DNA from: a virus | Taxonomy: Duplodnaviria; Heunggongvirae; Uroviricota; Caudoviricetes | Direction: 5' to 3' (one strand) | DNA: 64,000 bases | IMG/VR virus record: IMGVR_UViG_3300032893_000003 | Location: 14,633-78,632 of that record | Shown: positions 5,765 to 23,254 of the stretch, in pieces | Numbering within the stretch: the first letter of the stretch is position 1 | Layout: each line of letters starts with the position of its first letter | Program-made: the position numbers and the translations under genes | The notes under the pieces: generated by a model | What the model saw: the letters and a program-made list of their open reading frames with translations, nothing else | Database searches by the model: none | What the model was told of the DNA's origin: nothing

Positions 5765-6922
5765 ATGTTTATCGAGGGGTTCTTAAAAATAGCTTATCTC
5801 GAAAAGCGCCCTTACAAGTCGCTCGAGATCGGTAAGCTCAACCCCTCAAAAGAAGATGAAGCCTGGACTGCCAAAATCGACGGAGCGCATACAATCATCA
5901 ACATGAAAAAGGGAAAAATGCCGAGGCTTTTTTCCCATAGAATTTCAAAACGCACGGGCAATCCTATCGAATACACTCCAAAGCTCACTCATATTAAGAA
6001 CAAAAGTCCTGTGACAGCAGTTCTGCGTGGCGAAACCTTTGCAGTCGATGAAAAAGGCAAAGCTGTCCATCCAGATACCGTCACAGCCATGCTCAACAGA
6101 ACGGTTGAAAGATCTCTAGAACTTCAGAAAGAAAAGGGCATAAAAACTAAAGTTGCTCTCATCGATGTCGACGAGATTGGCGGCAAATCTGCCTACAATA
6201 AGCCCTTTGAATTTAAGAGAAAATTTATGGAAGGAATAGCAAAGAAGAACCCAGACTTTGTTCTACCTTCTATTGCCTACACCCAGTCTGAAAAAAAGAC
6301 TTTACTCAAAAAAATTCAGACCCATAAACTTCCAGAGACTAAAGAAGGACTCATCGTCCACAACCTCCATGAGCCTGAAAAACCCTTTGCAAAAGCTAAG
6401 ATAACCGCTGACCATGATGTCTACGTGACAGGGATTTACAAAGAAGAAAGCCCTACTGGCCGTCAGCCTATGGCCGGGGGTTTTGAATATTCCTGGGATC
6501 CTGGTGGCGAGATGGTAGGTCGAGTAGGAACTGGCTTTAGCCACGCGATGAAAGTGGACATGCTTAAAAATCCTGAAGATTACATCGGACGGGCAGCCAA
6601 AGTAACGGCCCACGATATCTCTCGAAACAAGGTCTTAATGAAGCCTTCTTTTCAGGGCTGGCACGTGGAAAAGAATATAGGGGATAACCCAGGGTTTGCT
6701 AAGCAAACCGTGATCATAGATAAATCACTGGTCAAGGATAGGGCTCACGCCCAGACCCTGGCCAAACCCTTTGCCGATCGCATTTATACGTCCAGGGAGA
6801 CGGGCTCTAGCTTTCGTTTTAGACAGCTTCCGCCAGGAAAATTCGTCCCAGGGACGTTTAAGACCTTCAAACCTAAGGAAGGAATTGCTATAGTGTATGG
6901 ACAGCTTAAAAAGGAGAAGTGA
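5765..6922 (+). CDS. ATP-dependent DNA ligase-like protein with leader and an extra C-terminal domain
   Basis: AKIDG (KxDG adenylation motif), RGETF, KEGLIV, AKAK, OB-fold GRVGTGFS; N-terminus MFIEGFLKIA. Confidence 0.8.
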   Translation: MFIEGFLKIAYLEKRPYKSLEIGKLNPSKEDEAWTAKIDGAHTIINMKKGKMPRLFSHRISKRTGNPIEYTPKLTHIKNKSPVTAVLRGETFAVDEKGKAVHPDTVTAMLNRTVERSLELQKEKGIKTKVALIDVDEIGGKSAYNKPFEFKRKFMEGIAKKNPDFVLPSIAYTQSEKKTLLKKIQTHKLPETKEGLIVHNLHEPEKPFAKAKITADHDVYVTGIYKEESPTGRQPMAGGFEYSWDPGGEMVGRVGTGFSHAMKVDMLKNPEDYIGRAAKVTAHDISRNKVLMKPSFQGWHVEKNIGDNPGFAKQTVIIDKSLVKDRAHAQTLAKPFADRIYTSRETGSSFRFRQLPPGKFVPGTFKTFKPKEGIAIVYGQLKKEK

Positions 6923-6924
6923 CC

Positions 6925-7185
6925 ATGTTTACCGACGGATTTAACAAGGTGGCAAAAGAGCTTACTACCGCTGCGCGTAAAAAAATACCGAAGAGCGAGT
7001 TTGCTCTGCCTGGTGCACACAAAGGCGAAGCCAATGAAGGAAAGTATCCGATTCCTGATAAGGCTCATGCTCGAAATGCTTTGGCCCGCGTAAGTGCGTA
7101 TGGCACACCGGAAGAAAAAGCCAAAGTGCGCGCGAAAGTGCATAAGGAATTTCCGGAGATCGGCAAAGATCATAAAGAAGACTAG
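6925..7185 (+). CDS. Small phage protein (YPIPDKAHARNALARV domain, possibly DUF6582-like) with leader MFTDGFNKVA
   Basis: ATG 6925 after AAGGAG; the domain is recognised from memory only. Confidence 0.75.
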   Translation: MFTDGFNKVAKELTTAARKKIPKSEFALPGAHKGEANEGKYPIPDKAHARNALARVSAYGTPEEKAKVRAKVHKEFPEIGKDHKED

Positions 7186-7187
7186 CC

Positions 7188-7355
7188 ATGTTCGTCCGCG
7201 GCTTTGAAAAAACTGCTAAAATAAAAAAGCCGCAGAAGAAATGCGTCTGTGCTGACGATCGCCCTGGTATTGACCAAAATATTCGGGCACAGCGGCCAGC
7301 GGAATTAGTCGATCGCCCGCTTGAAGGAGGACACGATGTTTACAGCTGGGTTTGA
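7188..7355 (+). CDS. 55-aa leader-bearing protein missed by the ORF track
   Basis: Manual translation: MFVRGFEKTAKIKKPQKKCVCADDRPGIDQNIRAQRPAELVDRPLEGGHDVYSWV*. Confidence 0.75.
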   Translation: MFVRGFEKTAKIKKPQKKCVCADDRPGIDQNIRAQRPAELVDRPLEGGHDVYSWV

Positions 7356-7809
7356 AAAAACAGCCCTCTCAGTACCAAGCCCGGGTGCCGCTATCGGCGC
7401 TCTGAAAGGTACTGCGCGATCAGCGACTAAAGCTGTAAAAGGTGCCGTTGAAAAGTTCAAAGGGCGAGAGTACGAAAAAGGTGTTCAAGCCTTTAGAAAA
7501 GCGACCACTGGAAAAGCTCGCGAAACAGGCACTAGTCTTTATGGAGCGCGCGCGCGAAAGCTCCAAGCCAAAGGCAAAGCTCCATCTTTTGAAGAAGCTG
7601 AGCAGATGGCTAGAAAATCAAAAGCAGATGTCTATAAAAGAAAAGCCACCATGGCAGAAAGTAAAAAAGCACGCGAGCCCTCTTTCGCCCGCAAGCATCC
7701 TTTCCTGACTGCAGGCGGTTTGTATTTAGCCGGCCGCGCAGCTTTTGGCGGCGGTGATGAAGATAAGCAGACCTCGCCACAACCGCAAGTTTATCAACCT
7801 AACTATTGA
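7336..7809 (+). CDS. Basic Ala/Lys-rich protein with leader MFTAGFEKTA
   Basis: AAGGAGG RBS before ATG 7336. Confidence 0.8.
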   Translation: MFTAGFEKTALSVPSPGAAIGALKGTARSATKAVKGAVEKFKGREYEKGVQAFRKATTGKARETGTSLYGARARKLQAKGKAPSFEEAEQMARKSKADVYKRKATMAESKKAREPSFARKHPFLTAGGLYLAGRAAFGGGDEDKQTSPQPQVYQPNY

Positions 7810-8673: not shown

Positions 8674-9102
8674 TCAAAAGGGTATAGCATCGTCTTGGTT
8701 AAAGGTCGGAGGTGGTGTTGCACTTCCTGGAGGAACAGGATCCGGAGCGCCAGCGCCGGCACGACCGTCAGGATTACCGCCTAAGAACTGAACAGTACTT
8801 GCTACAACTTCTGTCGTGTAATGCTTTTGTCCTTGTTGGTCATCCCAGCTTCGAGTTTGGAGTTCGCCTTCGACGTAAACTTGGCGACCCTTCTTGAGAT
8901 ACTTACCGCAGCTCTCAGCAATTTTGTTCCAGGCGATGACCCGATGCCACTCGACCTTTTCCTGTTTTTGTCCTTGGTTGTCCGTCCATTTTTTAGACGT
9001 TGCAATTGAGAGTTTAGCGACAGTCGCTCCTCCGTTTTGCAGAACCTTTACATCTGGATCTGCACCCAGATTCCCAATTAACTGGACTTTGTTTAAACTC
9101 AC
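8674..9102 (-). CDS. ssb: Single-stranded DNA-binding protein
   Basis: GTG start after GGAGG; LNKVQLIGNLGADP, EWHRV, VYVEGELQTRSW, acidic DDAIPF tail. Confidence 0.97.
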   Translation of the reverse strand: MSLNKVQLIGNLGADPDVKVLQNGGATVAKLSIATSKKWTDNQGQKQEKVEWHRVIAWNKIAESCGKYLKKGRQVYVEGELQTRSWDDQQGQKHYTTEVVASTVQFLGGNPDGRAGAGAPDPVPPGSATPPPTFNQDDAIPF

Positions 9103-9163
9103 CTTATCCTCCTCTCCCACCAATCGGCAGGCATCATGAAAGCATAATTGCTTTCTTAAAATT

Positions 9164-15883: not shown

Positions 15884-16522
15884 ATGCACCGCAAACCACC
15901 ACACTTCATCCCAATAATCAGAGACGGAATTAAATACTGCGGAGTCCCCGATTGCGAACGCCCCCAGAAAGCGCGCGGTGTTTGTTCTGTTCATTATCAG
16001 CGCATTACTACAGGCGGCGGAGATGCTTTGAGAGATAGTCGTCTATCAGAAGCTATTTGTAAATTTCCTAAATGTAAGCGGAAACATTATGCCAAAAATA
16101 TGTGCCGTTGGCATTATAATCGCGACCCTGATACGCAGGTCCGTATTCGCACTTGGTGGCGTTCAGAGAAAGGTCGACAGCTTTCTAAAAAGACCAACGA
16201 TACTCGCCGCTTTTCTCCTGAAGGCCGTTATTCTATGGGTCAGTATCATGCAAAGACGCGCCAAAGGGAATGGACCCTATCCCTACAAAAATTTTCGGAA
16301 CTGATTAAACTTCCGTGTTCCTATTGTGGAACTCTTCCGCCACCGAAATACTGCGGAATCTGGTTAGATCGTAAAGATACGGATGGCAACTACTCAGAAG
16401 ATAACGTGACTCCCTGTTGCGCTCTCTGTAATCGCTTGAAAAATGATTTGCTAACACACGAAGAAACTCTGGAATTAATCAAGCGCCTCCGAGAACTACG
16501 TGGCGGTGTCGTTTGGTCATAG
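15884..16522 (+). CDS. HNH-like (homing) endonuclease with N-terminal Zn-finger repeats
   Basis: Two C-x4-C...C-x2-HY repeats; CSYCG...LDRKD...YSEDNVTPCCALCNRLK. Confidence 0.8.
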   Translation: MHRKPPHFIPIIRDGIKYCGVPDCERPQKARGVCSVHYQRITTGGGDALRDSRLSEAICKFPKCKRKHYAKNMCRWHYNRDPDTQVRIRTWWRSEKGRQLSKKTNDTRRFSPEGRYSMGQYHAKTRQREWTLSLQKFSELIKLPCSYCGTLPPPKYCGIWLDRKDTDGNYSEDNVTPCCALCNRLKNDLLTHEETLELIKRLRELRGGVVWS

Positions 16523-18237
16523 AAGATGAAGATGTCGAAACAGACGGGAAGAACCCTTTAGAATACAATAAATACGCGTCTTCGCGCCAACGATTAGAAA
16601 AAGCGATTCGGCCCCATAATGCGTTCAAAGTCAGTGAAAGTTTTTTTACCAAATACGGCCAGAAAAATATTTTTAGGGCAGCCAAATCGCAGTGGGTTCA
16701 TAACCTAATTTATTTAGATGGAAAAAGATTTGATTTCACTGGGCGAGATTATCTTCGCCCCATCTATGACTCAAATTACCAACACAAACTTTTAAAAACT
16801 GGGAGACAGGTTGAAAAATCGACCATGCTTGCAAATGAGTTTATTACGAACTCCTGCATTATCCCTTATTTCAAAACACTGTATGTCAGTCCTAGCCATG
16901 ATCAGACACGGCAATTTTCAAACGCTAAACTGAAGCCGTGGATAGAAGACTCTCCAGTCATTATGAAGTACCTGCAGTCAAGTTCCGTAAGTCGCCAAGT
17001 TTTCGAAAAAAGTTTTTCCAATGGCTCCATAGGATTTTTACGTTCAGCTTTTTTAAGTGCGGATCGTACCCGTGGAATCTCAGCGGATTGTTTAAATATA
17101 GATGAAATTCAAGACATTCTGACTGCTAATATTCCGGTAATGCTTGAGACTCTATCCCACTCTAAATACGGATGGAAACTATTTTCCGGTACCCCGAAGA
17201 CTTTGGATAATCCCATAGAATTTTATTGGCAAGAATCATCTCAGTGTGAATGGCTAGTAATTTGTGATCATCATGTCCCTGTACATTATAACTATTTAGA
17301 CGAGAAGTGTATCGGGCAAGAAGGAATTATTTGCAATAAATGCGGTCATCCGATCGATCCCCAGAAGGGCAAGTGGATCGCATTTAGTAGTAATCGCGAT
17401 ATTATGGGATTTAGAATTTCTCAGCTCCAGGTTCCTTGGATGCACACTCCAACAAAGTGGAAGGAAATTTTATGGAAACTGAAAAACTATTCTAAAGGGC
17501 TATTTTATAATGAGGTTTTGGGCATTAGTTGGGATAGTGCTTCAAAGCCTGTCACGCGCACAGAGCTTATTGCGTGTTGTTCCTCAAGCCACGCCTTCCG
17601 GATTGTTCCAGATGGTTTTACAAAATCAAATCATGTCTTTGCTGGAATTGATTGGGGGGAAGGTTCAGATGGAAGTGAGCGCGGGATGAAGGGGAAACTT
17701 AAAAATGCCTCTTATACGGTCTTAACTTTGGGGTGTTATCTCACGCCTCATGTTTTTTATCCGTTCTTCATGAAGCGCTATACAGGTGAGGAAGCGCTTC
17801 CTTCAAACTGCGTGAGAGATATTATTAAAATTTGTAAGCTTTTTAATGTGGCATGTATCGGTGCTGACTGGGGACATGGATGGGGAGTGAATGAACAGCT
17901 TGAACAAGCGTTTGGAGTCCCTAAGGTTATAAAATGGCAGTATGTCGGAATGCAGCGCGAGCGTAAAAAATTTGATCCTGTTGGATTAAAAATCCAAATC
18001 AATAGAACTGAAGTGATGACGGATTTTTTCACAGATATAAAAAAACAAAGATACTGTTTCCCGCCCTGGGCCATCATGCAGTCCTTTCTGTGTGATGTGG
18101 AGCATATCCACGCGGAATTTGGCACCGCCATTGCGACAAATCTTATTAAGTATGATCACAGACCGAGTGAGCCGGATGATGCGGCTCACTCCATCATTTT
18201 GTGCCGCGAGACTGCGGATCATTTTTATCACCCCTGA
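16513..18237 (+). CDS. terL: Terminase large subunit, GpA-like
   Basis: Walker A-like KTGRQVEKST, Walker B LNIDEIQD, GTPKT, nuclease AGIDWG and PDDAAHS; TTG start uncertain. Confidence 0.9.
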   Translation: MVIEDEDVETDGKNPLEYNKYASSRQRLEKAIRPHNAFKVSESFFTKYGQKNIFRAAKSQWVHNLIYLDGKRFDFTGRDYLRPIYDSNYQHKLLKTGRQVEKSTMLANEFITNSCIIPYFKTLYVSPSHDQTRQFSNAKLKPWIEDSPVIMKYLQSSSVSRQVFEKSFSNGSIGFLRSAFLSADRTRGISADCLNIDEIQDILTANIPVMLETLSHSKYGWKLFSGTPKTLDNPIEFYWQESSQCEWLVICDHHVPVHYNYLDEKCIGQEGIICNKCGHPIDPQKGKWIAFSSNRDIMGFRISQLQVPWMHTPTKWKEILWKLKNYSKGLFYNEVLGISWDSASKPVTRTELIACCSSSHAFRIVPDGFTKSNHVFAGIDWGEGSDGSERGMKGKLKNASYTVLTLGCYLTPHVFYPFFMKRYTGEEALPSNCVRDIIKICKLFNVACIGADWGHGWGVNEQLEQAFGVPKVIKWQYVGMQRERKKFDPVGLKIQINRTEVMTDFFTDIKKQRYCFPPWAIMQSFLCDVEHIHAEFGTAIATNLIKYDHRPSEPDDAAHSIILCRETADHFYHP

Positions 18238-18428
18238 TGTTCTAACGGAACTTCGTCGCCCTCTTCAAGCTGATTTTCTAGAAAACTTTCTCTTCGAAGC
18301 TCTGCTTGATACTCCAGCATTTCAAGGCGATTTTGCGCTTCACGCTCAATTTCCCAACTCATGGGCCTTCTGCCGAGAGTGGTTTCTAAATGCTCTTCTG
18401 CGTCATAGTAGATGTCTTTGTAATCCAT
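18228..18428 (-). CDS. Acidic hypothetical protein
   Basis: GAGGAGG RBS. Confidence 0.7.
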   Translation of the reverse strand: MDYKDIYYDAEEHLETTLGRRPMSWEIEREAQNRLEMLEYQAELRRESFLENQLEEGDEVPLEHQG

Positions 18429-18664
18429 TTGTCCTCCTCGTTGACTTCTGTGATGTGTAAGCCTTCAGCCTCTGTCCATAAAATTTTCCGAGTCCATTCT
18501 CCGTAGATCCAGAGCCTTGAACCCCAGTCACTCATGTCTTCTTTATCCACAGACTGCATGGCTTTTCTCTTTGCTTCTTCAATACTCTCAGCCTGAACAT
18601 AAACGGTTCCGACTGCCGGAACCATCACTTGTCCAGTGACTTTGAAAGTTTTTTCTTCGTGCAT
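18386..18664 (-). CDS. Hypothetical protein
   Basis: AAGGAGG RBS, downstream of a promoter motif. Confidence 0.7.
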   Translation of the reverse strand: MHEEKTFKVTGQVMVPAVGTVYVQAESIEEAKRKAMQSVDKEDMSDWGSRLWIYGEWTRKILWTEAEGLHITEVNEEDKWITKTSTMTQKSI

Positions 18665-18686
18665 TTTATTAAACCTCCTTTGTTTA

Positions 18687-18713
18687 CTTATAACAACAAA
18701 GGTTTGGTTTTTG
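18687..18713 (-). promoter_or_regulatory. Promoter motif copy (CAAAAA-N15-TATAAG)
   Basis: Exact consensus and spacing. Confidence 0.65.
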
Positions 18714-18718
18714 ATCGG

Positions 18719-18758
18719 TAAAAAAAGAAGAAGAAGGAGGGGCTTTTAAACCCCTCCT
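18719..18758 (-). terminator. Intrinsic terminator closing the RAMP/repeat unit
   Basis: AGGAGGGG-TTTAAAAG-CCCCTCCT followed by TCTTCTTCTTTTTTT. Confidence 0.75.
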
Positions 18759-18764
18759 CAAGAT

Positions 18765-19985
18765 GACACCTTACGGTACCCTGCTAAAGCTGTAGCTCGC
18801 AACACTTTACCTATACTATGCCACGCTGTACTTCGCTTTTGCCCAACATAACGATGCGACGCCTTGCCTTCACGTTACTTTACCTCGAGATACTACGCCC
18901 TCGCTTTGCCATAGGGCACGCCACCTCGCCCTGCCGCTACTTGACATTGGCTGACCATATTGCGCTTCGCCTCACCTTGCCAGAGCTAGACAAGAGACCG
19001 CCTCACTTTGCCTTCACATTGCTAGACTAAACTTCGCCATAACCTTACTGTAGGGAGCTTCGCCATACTTATGCCGCAACGAGACCTTGCCTTACTTCGC
19101 CAAACCATAACCACGCAATGGGGTACACCAGATCGCTTTACCTCTACGCCACCGCAAAATTACGATACTTGACCTCAAGATACCATACCATCGCTGAACC
19201 TGAGTTCACGACACCTGTGCCTAATATGACATTACTTTACCTTAACTGGGCTGTGCGTCGCAAAACCAAACCAAAACGATGCCTCGTGGGACTTTACCAT
19301 ACTCCACTCGCGCCGGATCTTACTTCGCGCTAGGGTGCCACAACGTTACCGCGTAAAACAGGGCTTCGCCGCAACGTAGCTTTACCATACCTTGCCGACA
19401 CGAGACCCCAAACGAACTCAACCGGATCACACTGAAGCTGTACCAAATATGGCTTTACTGTGCCTTTACCGTGTTAGACATAACTGGACCGTGCCCTTAC
19501 TATACCTCAAGCGACACCGCCCCACTGTACCTCTGCCATACGTGACAAGCTAGACTGTACTATACCAACACTCTGCACGACATCACAGTGCCTGTGCTAG
19601 ACTGTACTAGGCTTATGCGTGACATCGCTATAGTTCACCCAGCCGTTGCAAAACAAAGGAAAACGTCAGAATGCCGTGGCCTCACTGCGCCCAACTTAAG
19701 CTCTACTGAAAATAACTAGGCGGTGCTTTACGAAAGCAAAACTTGATTTTACTCTGCCATACCTTGGCGCAACACCAAGTCACCTCAGCACACGATGCCG
19801 TTACTATACTAAACTATGCCCTACAATACTCACACAGCACATCAGAATGCCTGAGCGTGCAAAAACTTTGCTACACCAGACTGTCGGTACAATGCCGGCA
19901 CTATATTGCACTCCACCTTGCCCTAACAGGACACAACGCAGCTATAAGACACTTTGCCCTAGCGGGGCACAGCGTAGCAATGCAG
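18765..19985 (-). repeat. Degenerate period-5 array, (R/N)GY-NN, candidate guide-RNA array
   Basis: Example minus 19120-19076: GGT-tat-GGT-tt-GGC-ga-AGT-aa-GGC-aa-GGT-ct-CGT. GY recurs every 5 nt (occasionally 6) over about 1.2 kb; no credible ORF or RBS. Confidence 0.85.
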
Positions 19986-20900
19986 TTACTGAACAGCTTC
20001 GGCGCGCTTATCGCGATAGTCATGAAGTGCGTTTAGCTCATGAGAAAATACCCCCCAGCCTGCGTTCCTCCATTGTCCGAGTCCGCAGAAATACTCCCCG
20101 TATTCAAAGAGTGTGCGCAACACGTCCTCTGTAACAGCGGAGTTTTTCAACACTCGGATATTAAATTCAAAAGAAGCGCCGGCTGGGATGATCTCGGACT
20201 TAGCTAACGTCACCCGCGGCCCTTGAGCTGTAATGACCCGAAGAGAGCGCTGGAGATGTTTGGGATTCCCATGCTCATCGCGCCTGATATCACGGTCAGC
20301 TACAATGAACTGCTCTGTGCACCTAACGTGTTGGTTAATCAGCATCTGCGTGTAGGAAGCTGAGTGGAGCACTGTGCCCTTTTTAGCAGGCATTGTGCGC
20401 GCAATAGCTTCAGCCGCAGCCTTTAAGTAGCCATAGATCATGTGATCGCCAATACAAGGCCGGTTTGTTTTTTTATCCCAAAAGAAGATCGTTGTTCCTT
20501 TGGTATCAAGCTCTTCGAAGGTTTCTTTAAGCTCGTCGAGCTTTCCAGAAAGTGCCGCTTCCCGCTGTTCAGGGGTGAATTTGTAGCCAACCATCTCTTC
20601 GAGTTTGTCGATAGTGCGCTCAATCTCCTCTTTGCTTTTCTCAGGCGAGATGTCCATTTGTCCTAAGTACTTGTTGATGGTCGTATTGATCTTACTTTTT
20701 TCCATGATGAGCTTTCGCTGCTTCTCATGGATGTGGGTGTCAAGTACATAAGGGTCAGCAGGGTTAGTGCCGAGCATATCACGGATGAGCGTGAGCTTGA
20801 CCCGGTATTCATCGAAGATTTTTGAAGGCCCGCTTGGAGTTTGCTTGGCAAGCGTTGCCGAGACTGCCTGGGCTTTTCCTTCAGTTGTTGTTTGGGACAT
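19986..20900 (-). CDS. Stand-alone RAMP/Cas7-like protein (Vipr-like)
   Basis: N-terminal YRVKLTLIRDMLGTNP strand, IGDHMIYGYLKAAAE (cf. Cas7 IPGSSxKGxLR), SEIIPAGASFEFNI and C-terminal Gly-rich loop GLGQWRNAGWGVF; AAGGAG RBS. Confidence 0.8.
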   Translation of the reverse strand: MSQTTTEGKAQAVSATLAKQTPSGPSKIFDEYRVKLTLIRDMLGTNPADPYVLDTHIHEKQRKLIMEKSKINTTINKYLGQMDISPEKSKEEIERTIDKLEEMVGYKFTPEQREAALSGKLDELKETFEELDTKGTTIFFWDKKTNRPCIGDHMIYGYLKAAAEAIARTMPAKKGTVLHSASYTQMLINQHVRCTEQFIVADRDIRRDEHGNPKHLQRSLRVITAQGPRVTLAKSEIIPAGASFEFNIRVLKNSAVTEDVLRTLFEYGEYFCGLGQWRNAGWGVFSHELNALHDYRDKRAEAVQ

Positions 20901-20943
20901 AGGATCTCCTTTTGTTTGACTGCGGATTTATTTCCGCACACGA

Positions 20944-20970
20944 CTCATAACAATAAAGGAGTGTTTTTTG
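20944..20970 (-). promoter_or_regulatory. Promoter for the RAMP/array unit (CAAAAA-N15-TATGAG)
   Basis: Consensus match 44 bp upstream of the start codon. Confidence 0.65.
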
Positions 20971-20976
20971 ATAGGT

Positions 20977-21000
20977 AAAAAAAGCCCCTTGGGAGGGGCT
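20977..21000 (-). terminator. Intrinsic terminator insulating the RAMP unit
   Basis: AGCCCCTCCCAAGGGGCTTTTTTT. Confidence 0.75.
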
Positions 21001-21184
21001 ATGCGGGATCTTCGCCAATGATCTTTGCTACAAAATCATCTACGAAGGCATCAAACTCATCTGGTTCAACAGCGGAATGCACCTCCACTTCTATTTTATT
21101 CGGATACCGTATAAGTAATATCGTACCCACAGCTTTTCCCGTGGGATCCCTCGCAACTAGAACTAATTTCCTTGTAAATTCCAT
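20999..21184 (-). CDS. Hypothetical protein
   Basis: AAGGAG RBS. Confidence 0.65.
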   Translation of the reverse strand: MEFTRKLVLVARDPTGKAVGTILLIRYPNKIEVEVHSAVEPDEFDAFVDDFVAKIIGEDPA

Positions 21185-21200
21185 CCGTTCTCCTTTCGAA

Positions 21201-21230
21201 TAAAGAGCCCCCTTGGTAGGGGGGGGCTCT
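21201..21230 (-). terminator. Intrinsic terminator
   Basis: AGAGCCCCC / GGGGGCTCT stem then TTA. Confidence 0.55.
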
Positions 21231-21238
21231 AGCTTTGG

Positions 21239-21565
21239 CTAATCTGTCGGATCCTTGGGGCCAAATATCTTATCCACGGCCTTGTCTGCTTTCCGAAGAA
21301 TTTCGTTAAAGACTTCATGTCCCTCCGGATCTATAATCTTATCGATAAATTCTCCAGCATCTTGGGCTTTATCTAGCACTTCTCCAATAATTTTCAAGAG
21401 AGGTTCTGGGTCGAGATGGGAGCCTCCGTAGCTGAGCGTTACGAGCTGCTTAATCATATCTTTGGCATCCTCGTAATGCATATCTCTACCGTCCGGATCA
21501 TCAGCAGTTTTCTGGAAAAAATGCTGTGCTATAAGCCTGAATAGTTCTGATTCTTCAAATTTCAT
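21239..21565 (-). CDS. Hypothetical protein
   Basis: GGAGGG RBS, ATGA overlap. Confidence 0.7.
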   Translation of the reverse strand: MKFEESELFRLIAQHFFQKTADDPDGRDMHYEDAKDMIKQLVTLSYGGSHLDPEPLLKIIGEVLDKAQDAGEFIDKIIDPEGHEVFNEILRKADKAVDKIFGPKDPTD

Positions 21566-22471: not shown

Positions 22472-23254
22472 TTAGTTTGGTACGAATACAACTTGCGGTG
22501 GATATGCTACGCTGAGGGGCATACTAGTTGTCACAGCCGTTACAGGAGTGTCATCGTATCCGGTGATGGCGGTATTCTTACACGAGGAGCTAGTATTTAG
22601 ATCTATATATGAGGCGTACGTAATCTGGCGTACCGAAGGACCTGTTGCCTTATATATCAATCCTGTACTTGCTGTAGTACCAGCAAAATGTGTGAGTGAG
22701 TTCATAATGGCTGGTGCTTGCATATAAGTGGACCCTGTGCAATTGGCTCCTGTGTAATATAGCAGGTACCACGATTGCATCACAGCCACTGTATTGCCCG
22801 CGCCTCCTATTTGTAATACCGGCACATAGGTGACTACCGCGCTATCTGTGCTGTCATAAACCGTGAAGTTGCCGTTATACTGAAGCCCCAGGTATTGGGT
22901 CCCGATTTGCACTCCATTGGCATCCTTCGCCACGAAACCTCCATTCCCTCCAGCAGGACCTGTAGGACCTGTAGCGCCCTGCGGACCCGTGGCACCCGTA
23001 GCGCCAGTAGGACCTTGAGGTCCTTGCGGACCTGTGGCTCCAGTGGCACCTGTTGCGCCGTTAGCCGCTAGAGCTGAAGAGCCATCAGAACATGAGAATT
23101 CGGCACCTCCGGCTGCTTGATTTACAGAGCAGCCGCTAGAGGCTAGAGCATTAGGTGCGCCTACTGAAGGAGCCGAAGCTGTCGTCGTGGTGCTAGTGCC
23201 TCCAAGGCAGGCAGTAAGTGACAACGATGCGAGTAATAGAATTAGATATTTCAT
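22472..23254 (-). CDS. Collagen-repeat lipoprotein
   Basis: MKYLILLLASLSLTAC lipobox; about 13 G-X-Y triplets (GATGATGATGPQGPQGPTG). Confidence 0.8.
   Translation of the reverse strand: MKYLILLLASLSLTACLGGTSTTTTASAPSVGAPNALASSGCSVNQAAGGAEFSCSDGSSALAANGATGATGATGPQGPQGPTGATGATGPQGATGPTGPAGGNGGFVAKDANGVQIGTQYLGLQYNGNFTVYDSTDSAVVTYVPVLQIGGAGNTVAVMQSWYLLYYTGANCTGSTYMQAPAIMNSLTHFAGTTASTGLIYKATGPSVRQITYASYIDLNTSSSCKNTAITGYDDTPVTAVTTSMPLSVAYPPQVVFVPN

What the first reader, a model, noticed from the sequence alone, without database searches (positions are those of the whole stretch)
18719..20970. Lone Cas7-like RAMP gene followed by a 1.2-kb (R/N)GY-NN pentamer array: candidate non-CRISPR RNA-guided system
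Seen: a 304-aa protein with RAMP hallmarks (first-strand LTLIRDMLGT, Cas7-like HMIYGYLKAAAE, terminal G-rich loop GLGQWRNAGWG). Directly behind its stop on the same strand lie on the order of 230 degenerate 5-mers, each a near-fixed GY trinucleotide plus a variable dinucleotide (e.g. GGC-ga-AGT-aa-GGC-aa-GGT-ct). No cas1/cas2, cas5/6/8 or classical CRISPR array is present in the window. Established: RAMPs oligomerise along RNA with a fixed nucleotide step. Inference: the array is a guide RNA on which the protein binds each constant triplet, while the variable NN positions spell a gapped target code, perhaps against competing phages or host DNA. From memory this matches recently reported phage 'VIPR' systems (GGY/NN RNAs plus an ancestral RAMP). 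I cannot verify that here, and this array is looser (RGY/NGY), so it may be a divergent member.
Basis: partly seen in the sequence, partly recalled or inferred. Interest (0 to 1): 0.95.

Follow-up and report, generated by a model that had tools for sequence, protein, structure and literature searches.

The report
Phage VIPR system, very long guide array
A 175-kb wetland phage carries a VIPR system, a CRISPR-related device first published in 2026 (one Cas7-like protein plus guide RNA made of five-letter repeats); here the repeat tract is very long, about 236 repeats cut into about 42 short modules, so it is a further example of a known kind, and its targets were not found.

Summary
ORF 19986-20900 (minus strand, 304 aa) folds as a Cas7/Csm3-type RAMP. 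Its five best AlphaFold-DB matches are exactly the five UniProt entries that the VIPR discovery preprint (bioRxiv 10.64898/2026.04.26.720920) names as its founding Vipr proteins.

Directly downstream on the same strand, 19985-18765 holds 236 units of N-G-Y-N-N. The tract has no codon periodicity and no excess RNA structure. It is the only such tract in the 175-kb genome.

The true period is 5.17 nt, not 5. One extra base falls about every sixth unit, giving roughly 42 modules of 5n+1 nt, most often 31 or 26. Most modules start with a canonical GG-Y-A unit.

The same grammar follows the homologous gene in seven other loci. Between sister phages the flanking genes are 74-76% identical, but the arrays share only one module.

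I read this as a VIPR system of the published YNNNG-repeat, probably "staggered", tail-less kind. It has no accessory gene. Its G-loop is Q-W-R where SUSP1 has D-W-R, which fits the relaxed first G.

No targets were found in the phage itself, IMG/VR, JGI metagenomes or GTDB genomes. Expression could not be tested.

This scan has already reported VIPR loci in at least 17 other genomes. Verdict: new member of a known kind.

The parts
20983..21000 (-). Intrinsic terminator of the upstream gene; it insulates the cassette at its 5' side
   Evidence: Stem of 7 pairs, loop of 4, then a T-run
20943..20984 (-). 42-nt promoter-like element, copy 1 (TTTACC, 18 nt, TATTGT by eye). A 5' leader with an AAGGAG ribosome-binding site follows it, ahead of the ATG at 20900
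   Evidence: Direct repeat D1, 86% identical to the copy at 18686-18727. Only two copies in the whole genome. Conserved upstream of vipr in L007. The promoter reading is inference
19986..20900 (-). vipr gene: a 304-aa Cas7-like RAMP. Beta-1 at residues 29-38, helical bundle insertion at about 52-129, RRM helix-1 at 152-167, thumb hairpin at 215-238, G-loop at 272-283 with Q276-W277-R278
18765..19985 (-). vrRNA array: 236 N-G-Y-N-N units in about 42 modules of 5n+1 nt. Probably co-transcribed with vipr
19583..19633 (-). The one module block shared with the sister phage (L007 10973-11023). It sits at a different offset in each array (352 nt here, 48 nt there)
   Evidence: Local alignment score 50, against at most 36 in 20 unit-shuffled controls
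18734..18759 (-). Intrinsic terminator that closes the vipr-array transcription unit
   Evidence: Stem of 11 pairs, loop of 4, T-rich tail
18686..18727 (-). 42-nt promoter-like element, copy 2, in front of the next gene (18664..18386)

Best explanation
This is a VIPR (Viral Interference Programmable Repeat) system of an uncultivated 175-kb wetland phage.

Shown. The gene encodes a Vipr-type RAMP. A 1.2-kb, strand-specific, non-coding N-G-Y-N-N array follows it inside one terminator-bounded cassette. The same pairing of gene and array recurs across a very large protein clade. The arrays turn over much faster than their flanks.

Inferred by homology with SUSP1 VIPR. The array is transcribed with vipr. 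One Vipr protomer binds each 5-nt unit, holding the G-Y (plus the preceding base) through the thumb and the G-loop W277/R278. The two following variable bases are presented for pairing with double-stranded DNA, skipping every third target base. Because there is no nuclease or other accessory gene, the outcome would be binding and transcriptional silencing of competing mobile elements.

Inferred from anatomy. The +1 phase breaks fall every 4-8 units, mostly in front of a canonical GG-Y-A unit. I take them as punctuation that divides the transcript into about 42 tail-less short guides (a 'staggered' array). Reading of the first G is relaxed because the residue that reads it in SUSP1 (D177) is Q in this clade.
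For: Fold.
- AF2 model has pLDDT 73 and a beta-alpha RRM core, a thumb hairpin and a G-loop.
- Foldseek against PDB puts Csm3/Cas7 of type III and type VII on top, at E about 1e-6.
- The top five AFDB cluster hits are A0A1F4YLN4 (E 3.9e-16, 25% identity), X1U2U4, A0A2D6XG06, A0A661D0E2 and A0A0F9A1L0. These are the five VIPR seeds named in the paper's methods.
- A profile comparison aligns the G-loop with SUSP1 Vipr: CGVGDWRP against CGLGQWRN, probability 70%. In SUSP1, W178 stacks on G2, R179 holds Y3 and D177 reads G1.

Array.
- Periodicity and unit statistics.
- No 3-nt periodicity. RNA folding z = +0.74.
- Terminators lie on both sides, and no terminator-like site on the transcribed strand lies between vipr and the array.

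Conservation.
- The same grammar and the same 5.1-5.2 nt period lie downstream of homologues at 87, 69 and 62% identity (L007, L001, L002/L003, L008) and of distant relatives (L106, L107, L108).
- Pooled over 159 phase breaks, 67% have GG-Y against a 26% background (p = 3e-26). N4 is A in 64% against 35% (p = 2e-9). Module lengths are 31, 26, 36 and 21 nt.
- Flanks are 74-76% identical to L007, while the array is not alignable apart from one module.
- The NN dinucleotides fit codon positions 1-2 better than the other sense frames in all five arrays and best of all six models in four (weak).
- The G-loop is G-x-G-Q-W-R in 205 of 270 clade members and never D-W-R.

Context. The record is a phage genome with 100% CheckV completeness and a terminase next door.
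Against: - No target was found under any skip rule, whether in the phage itself, relatives' loci, IMG/VR, JGI metagenomes or GTDB genomes.
- No conserved vap gene was found, and no conserved 3' tail or ribozyme. The assembly and processing rules of SUSP1 therefore need not apply.
- Modules of 4-8 units specify only 8-16 bases, far fewer than the 18-32 of the 9-16-unit SUSP1 guides, which is little for specific DNA recognition.
- In SUSP1, changing GGY to AGY was among the GGY substitutions tested, and perturbing GGY abolished silencing. This clade must therefore read its RNA differently.
- Sequence similarity to SUSP1 Vipr is confined to about 50 residues.
Confidence: 0.82

Rival explanations
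1. It is a VIPR system, but the phase breaks do not separate guides. The array is used as long multi-module guides or as one long filament. The extra base every sixth unit or so acts as a hinge or register reset, perhaps once per helical turn.
For: - The SUSP1 binary filament has a six-subunit helical periodicity. The modal module here is six units plus 1 nt.
- Six units (12 specified bases) look too few for specific targeting.
- The paper notes frequent internal degeneracy within vrRNAs.
Against: - Module length varies from 4 to 8 units, not a fixed 6.
- The DNA-bound SUSP1 filament has five subunits per turn, not six.
- Modules mostly begin with a distinct GG-Y-A unit, which looks like a start signal.
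- Seeds that cross a junction found nothing. That test is weak.
Confidence: 0.3
2. The array is a decoy or sponge, not a set of guides. As a long degenerate repeat RNA it would titrate the Vipr proteins of competing phages, or autoregulate the phage's own Vipr as a 3' UTR.
For: - Satellites encode stand-alone vrRNAs that redirect a phage's VIPR to decoy sites (abstract of 10.64898/2026.10.15.759431).
- No targets were found.
- The array is very long and sits on the vipr transcript.
Against: - A sponge needs no variable positions. Yet the NN positions are highly diverse, turn over quickly between sister phages and have a codon-like composition.
- The array always accompanies its own vipr gene in the loci examined.
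Confidence: 0.05
3. The tract acts as DNA, not RNA. It would be a phased protein-binding or curved-DNA element such as a packaging (pac) site beside the terminase gene. Two units span 10.3 bp, about one DNA turn.
For: - The array abuts the convergent terminase large-subunit gene here and in L007 and L008.
- 31/3 = 10.3 bp is close to the DNA helical repeat (own arithmetic).
Against: - Base composition is strongly strand-asymmetric: G 0.32 against C 0.19 on the vipr strand.
- The tract is bounded by a terminator on that strand.
- It is hypervariable between sister phages, whereas a pac site would be conserved.
- It follows vipr homologues even where no terminase is adjacent (L001, L002, L107, L108).
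Confidence: 0.03
4. An orphan CRISPR Cas7 remnant lies next to an unrelated low-complexity spacer region.
For: The best solved-structure matches are CRISPR Csm3/Cas7.
Against: - The AFDB hits closest to the model are the non-CRISPR Vipr seeds, not Cas7.
- There are 1,584 clusters of relatives, and the loci examined have the same gene-array layout.
- There is no Cas1 and no repeat-spacer array.
- The array is highly non-random.
Confidence: 0.01

Closest known systems
Type II VIPR of Escherichia phage SUSP1 (Vipr ALH47069, KT454805 28474-29061; bioRxiv 10.64898/2026.04.26.720920 and .720927)
   Same: - Phage-encoded single RAMP with an RRM core, thumb and G-loop carrying W-R.
- A 5-nt repeat RNA encoded next to the gene, with a fixed G-Y and variable NN.
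- No cas genes and no CRISPR array.
   Different: - The protein here is 304 aa (265-300 in the subfamily) against 195 aa, with a much longer helical insertion.
- The G-loop is Q-W-R instead of D-W-R.
- Units are N-G-Y-N-N instead of G-G-Y-N-N.
- One 1.2-kb uninterrupted tract of about 42 modules of 4-8 units replaces four vrRNAs of 9-16 units, each with a 3' pseudoknot tail.
- No vap1-like neighbour.
- In my own scan of SUSP1, its arrays are runs of exact 5-nt register.
VIPR 'staggered vrRNA arrays' and the alternative 'YNNNG' repeat consensus (fig. S18 legend and type-classification methods of 10.64898/2026.04.26.720920)
   Same: - Tail-less contiguous arrays in which successive vrRNAs are offset by one nucleotide.
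- A consensus with only G and Y fixed. This corresponds to the G-Y-NNN reading of the units here.
   Different: - The figure itself is not available to me, so the equivalence rests on the legend's wording.
- The paper did not confirm staggered arrays by RNA sequencing.
- Other staggered arrays reported by this scan have units of about 54-59 nt, against 26-31 nt here.
AFDB cluster A0A1F4YLN4, one of the five founding Vipr structures
   Same: Best structural match to the model: E 3.9e-16, 25% identity, aligned over residues 29-293.
   Different: It is 229 aa, so it lacks part of the helical insertion. I could not establish its VIPR type or its array.
Class 1 CRISPR backbone subunits (Csm3, Cmr4, Cas7, type VII Cas7)
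   Same: - Same fold: Foldseek probability 1.0, E about 1e-6.
- G-loop sequence similarity to Csm4 and Cas7.
- One protomer per fixed RNA step.
   Different: - A 5-nt step instead of 6-nt.
- The guide is a degenerate tandem repeat, not a spacer between repeats.
- No Cas5, Cas6 or large-subunit partners, and no adaptation genes.

Membership tests
VIPR (Vipr protein + vrRNA) | Protein is a RAMP with an RRM core, glycine-rich loop and thumb | tested here: met
   AF2 model. Foldseek PDB top hits are Csm3/Cas7. G-loop GLGQWRNAGWG. The thumb hairpin 215-238 carries invariant R218, R221 and R229.
VIPR (Vipr protein + vrRNA) | Protein groups with bona fide Vipr proteins and not with CRISPR RAMPs | tested here: met
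   The top five AFDB cluster hits are the five Vipr seeds listed in the paper. The G-loop aligns to SUSP1 Vipr at 70% probability. No phylogeny was made.
VIPR (Vipr protein + vrRNA) | Adjacent tandem pentanucleotide array with a fixed GGY-type scaffold and hypervariable NN | tested here: met
   236 units with G 86% and Y about 90-100%. The scaffold is N-G-Y, matching the paper's alternative 'YNNNG' consensus. Arrays are not alignable between sister phages.
VIPR (Vipr protein + vrRNA) | The gene-array association recurs in homologues | tested here: met
   L001, L002/L003, L007, L008, L106, L107 and L108 all carry a downstream array of period 5.1-5.3.
VIPR (Vipr protein + vrRNA) | Minimal non-CRISPR locus, mostly viral | tested here: met
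   Virus record, 100% complete by CheckV, no Cas1. No CRISPR-like array. Terminase is adjacent. Only Cas1 was searched explicitly.
VIPR (Vipr protein + vrRNA) | Accessory vap gene ('typically' present, not obligatory) | tested here: not met
   Small neighbouring ORFs are not conserved between loci and have no Pfam family. A terminator separates the upstream ORF from vipr.
VIPR (Vipr protein + vrRNA) | vrRNA is expressed and co-purifies with Vipr | not testable with these tools
   No RNA run holds the locus.
VIPR (Vipr protein + vrRNA) | NN positions match natural DNA targets with a 1-nt skip | tested here: inconclusive
   No match above unit-shuffled controls in the phage itself or in relatives' loci. 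Seven exact-seed scans of public collections gave chance-level hits that did not extend. Only 6 of about 42 modules were tested, and without mismatch tolerance.
Type II VIPR (SUSP1-like) | Discrete vrRNAs of 9-16 GGYNN units capped by a conserved structured 3' tail; vap1 partner | tested here: not met
   Modules have 4-8 units. There is no recurring tail or Rfam structure. There is no vap.
Class 1 CRISPR-Cas effector | Repeat-spacer array plus Cas5, Cas6, large-subunit and adaptation genes | tested here: not met
   the neighbourhood is.

The most novel reading that the evidence does not exclude
The 5n+1 grammar would be a distinct VIPR operating logic, not mere degeneracy. In that grammar an extra base falls about every sixth unit, usually just before a canonical GG-Y-A unit, and this is conserved across the clade. 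Under this reading it works as built-in punctuation. One mRNA-linked 1.2-kb transcript could then be parsed into some 42 tail-less mini-guides, or phased once per filament turn, without ribozymes, tails or a Cas6-like nuclease. The clade-wide G-loop change from D to Q would free the first repeat base, so the code might read three variable bases per unit (G-Y-NNN) instead of two.
Probability: 0.2. Interest if true: 0.7.

Novelty: new member of a known kind. Interest (0 to 1): 0.45.

Why it matters
VIPR is a months-old discovery, and only type II has been worked out biochemically.

- This locus belongs to a very large, almost entirely metagenomic Vipr clade: 1,584 clusters at 50% identity.
- The clade's arrays are tail-less, far longer than the SUSP1 arrays characterised in the preprints, and built on a relaxed N-G-Y scaffold with a regular 5n+1 punctuation.
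- If the modules are real guides, one phage carries about 42 of them.
- The clade would be a natural test of how vrRNAs are delimited without tails or ribozymes.
- It would also test how few repeats suffice for DNA recognition.
- For genome annotation, it shows that such arrays are missed by tandem-repeat finders and by strict 5-nt models.

Tried and rejected
1. Pfam and PHROGs scans of the protein gave only sub-threshold, irrelevant hits.
2. tblastn against GenBank phages gave four weak hits in unannotated gut phage contigs. I did not follow them up.
3. Rfam search of 18000-21500 found no hammerhead or other family. The single hit was spurious.
4. Self-targeting and targeting of relatives' loci were tested with skip rules 0-3, an NNN rule and three junction models. 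Nothing exceeded unit-shuffled controls.
5. Seed searches:
   - The 8-unit seed of module 18976 in IMG/VR gave 96 hits. Of these, 85 fall in frame in two redundant protein families ([DE][DE]A[IM]QKQS), and none extends beyond the seed. I judge these to be chance hits multiplied by database redundancy.
   - Four 9-unit seeds gave 4, 0, 4 and 1 hits with no extension.
   - The 9-unit seed in JGI metagenomes gave 38 hits. The best family extends 9 of 16, which is not significant.
   - The conserved-module seed gave 0 hits in IMG/VR and 4 in GTDB genomes, with no extension.
6. Stop-triplet depletion in the N4-N5-N1 triplets was 34 observed against 43 expected, pooled. This is not significant.
7. 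I looked for a conserved vap among the small neighbouring ORFs and found none.
8. L008 and L009 are identical, so they say nothing about which array positions vary.
9. Sequencing runs: no RNA holder is listed. The only full holder is a wetland metagenome that may be the source.
10. A homo-trimer prediction for residues 29-296 returned no verdict.
11. My first guess for SUSP1 Vipr (ALH47003) was wrong. The real one is ALH47069.
12. The plus-strand ORFs of 53-97 aa inside the array are rejected as genes, because the tract has no 3-nt periodicity and is not alignable with the sister phage's array.
Full report
**Observation**

The minus strand carries a 304-aa ORF at 19986-20900 with the three quoted motifs.

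From its stop codon down to about 18765, the same strand is a degenerate pentamer tract.
- Identity at lag 5 is 0.381, against 0.259 in shuffles (z = 9.5).
- The spectrum peaks sharply at 5.169 nt, which is 31/6, and not at 5.0. Power is 18.7 at 5.167, 0.86 at 5.0 and 0.74 at 3.0. Neighbouring genes show 5-8 at period 3.
- An HMM segmentation gives 236 units of N-G-Y-N-N. G is 86%. Y is about 90-100%. The first base is A 37% and G 27%.
- Spacings are 192 of 5 nt, 41 of 6 nt and 2 of 4 nt.

The tract is G/T-rich on the gene's strand. It is no more structured than shuffles (z = +0.74). It is the only such tract in the 175,168-bp genome, which also has only one copy of the gene.

**The protein**

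Pfam and PHROGs are silent. Even so, the protein has 225 relatives among clusters at 90% identity. A profile search finds 1,584 clusters at 50% identity with E of 1e-3 or better, many of them about 200-230 aa.

An AF2 model built on 32 homologues (pLDDT 73) shows the RAMP layout. It has beta-1, a long helical insertion (about residues 52-129), RRM helix-1, a beta-hairpin thumb (215-238) with invariant arginines, and a G-loop just before the last strand.

Foldseek against the PDB returns Csm3 and Cas7 of type III and type VII complexes at E about 1e-6.

Against AFDB clusters, the five best hits are A0A1F4YLN4 (E 3.9e-16), X1U2U4, A0A2D6XG06, A0A661D0E2 and A0A0F9A1L0. These are precisely the five entries that the VIPR discovery preprint lists as its non-CRISPR RAMP founders.

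I located SUSP1 Vipr in KT454805 (28474-29061, minus strand). It is the best match of my profile in that genome. Profile comparison aligns the G-loops: CGVGDWRP against CGLGQWRN. According to the structure preprint, W178 stacks on G2, R179 holds Y3 and D177 hydrogen-bonds G1. Here W and R are kept and D is replaced by Q. Across 270 clade members the loop is Q-W-R in 205 and never D-W-R. This fits an array in which G2 and Y3 are fixed and G1 is free. The link is an inference from two clades only.

**The array's grammar**

The 6-nt spacings recur every 4-8 units, so the tract is a string of 5n+1 modules.

Pooling five loci gives 159 breaks.
- Module lengths are 31 nt (49 modules), 26 (42), 36 (23) and 21 (19).
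- At 67% of breaks the unit after the extra base is a canonical GG-Y, against a 26% background (p = 3e-26).
- The next base of that unit is A in 64%, against 35% (p = 2e-9).

The paper describes 'staggered' arrays whose vrRNAs are offset by one nucleotide, and alternative YNNNG repeats. I take this locus to be of that kind, but I could not see the figure.

In the SUSP1 binary filament there are six subunits per turn, and five when DNA is bound. The match with the modal six-unit module is noted, but I do not rely on it.

**Conservation and turnover**

The same grammar follows the homologous gene in:
- L007 (87% protein identity, a 175.8-kb contig);
- L001 (69%);
- L002/L003 and L008 (62%);
- distant long and short relatives L106, L107 and L108.

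Against L007, vipr is 76% and the terminase gene 74% identical in DNA. The array gives no BLAST alignment. A local alignment finds one shared block of about 50 nt, at 19633-19583 here and 10973-11023 in L007. It lies 352 nt into this array and 48 nt into the other. Guides are therefore replaced or reshuffled much faster than the genes drift.

**Transcription unit**

A terminator (21000-20983) ends the upstream gene. A 42-nt element follows, then a strong ribosome-binding site, vipr, the array and a second terminator (18759-18734). The 42-nt element occurs only twice in the genome. The second copy lies just after that terminator, in front of the next gene. No minus-strand promoter or terminator pattern separates vipr from the array. 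Co-transcription is therefore likely, but it is inferred.

**Targets**

Using the published rule (NN, one skipped base) and alternatives, I found nothing above unit-shuffled controls in the phage's own genome or in relatives' loci.

Exact seeds of 8-9 units from six modules were scanned in IMG/VR, JGI metagenomes and GTDB genomes. Hit numbers were at chance level and no hit extended beyond its seed.

The seeds are codon-like, so chance hits fall in frame in conserved proteins. This is a trap worth noting.

One indirect result: the NN dinucleotides fit codon positions 1-2 better than the other sense frames in all five arrays, and best of all six models in four of them. That is what the wobble-skip rule predicts, but the effect is small.

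**Comparison and verdict**

Every structural and contextual criterion for VIPR that I could test is met. The exception is a vap gene, which the paper calls typical and not obligatory. Type II features are not met: tails, 9-16 units and vap1.

The locus differs from the characterised systems in six ways:
- scaffold (N-G-Y);
- G-loop (Q for D);
- protein size;
- array length (236 units);
- module size;
- lack of any tail.

These traits appear to lie within the diversity the discovery paper already sketches. This scan has also reported VIPR loci in at least 17 other genomes.

I therefore class it as a new member of a known kind. The 5n+1 punctuation and the relaxed first base are the points worth an experiment.

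The habitat is a wetland metagenome, and no RNA data exist for the locus.

Noticed in passing
window 18686-18727 and 20943-20984: A 42-nt direct repeat (86% identical) brackets the vipr-array cassette and occurs nowhere else in the 175-kb genome. It is either a promoter shared by two adjacent units or a footprint of how the cassette was inserted or duplicated.
   Followed up: partly
L002 6001-9200 (= L160; contig_86640, 152 kb): One phage contig carries two vipr paralogues (265 and 274 aa) in convergent orientation. The first has a downstream array (6800-7400). The second has none downstream. A second G-rich periodic tract (period about 5.4) lies on the other side of it, at 8700-9150.
   Followed up: partly
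L108 851-1117: In a short-form relative (199 aa), an 88-aa ORF overlaps the vipr stop and precedes the array. It is a candidate vap gene that the long-form subfamily lacks.
   Followed up: no
window 15884-16522: A Cys-rich 212-aa ORF lies directly upstream of the terminase large subunit and overlaps its start. Its C-terminal motif looks HNH-like by eye, but Pfam gives no hit at E <= 0.01.
   Followed up: no
window 22472-23254: A 260-aa protein with a lipoprotein-type signal and a collagen-like G-x-y stretch (Pfam Collagen, E 6e-6, just under the cut-off). A collagen-repeat gene sits at the same relative place in L007 and L009.
   Followed up: no
window 18818-20134, plus strand: Five ORFs of 53-97 aa run antisense through the array. 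They exist only because that strand is poor in stop triplets. A gene caller could annotate them wrongly.
   Followed up: yes
window 18765-19985: Tandem Repeats Finder at default settings does not report the 236-unit array at all. Degenerate vrRNA arrays with phase breaks are invisible to standard repeat finders.
   Followed up: yes
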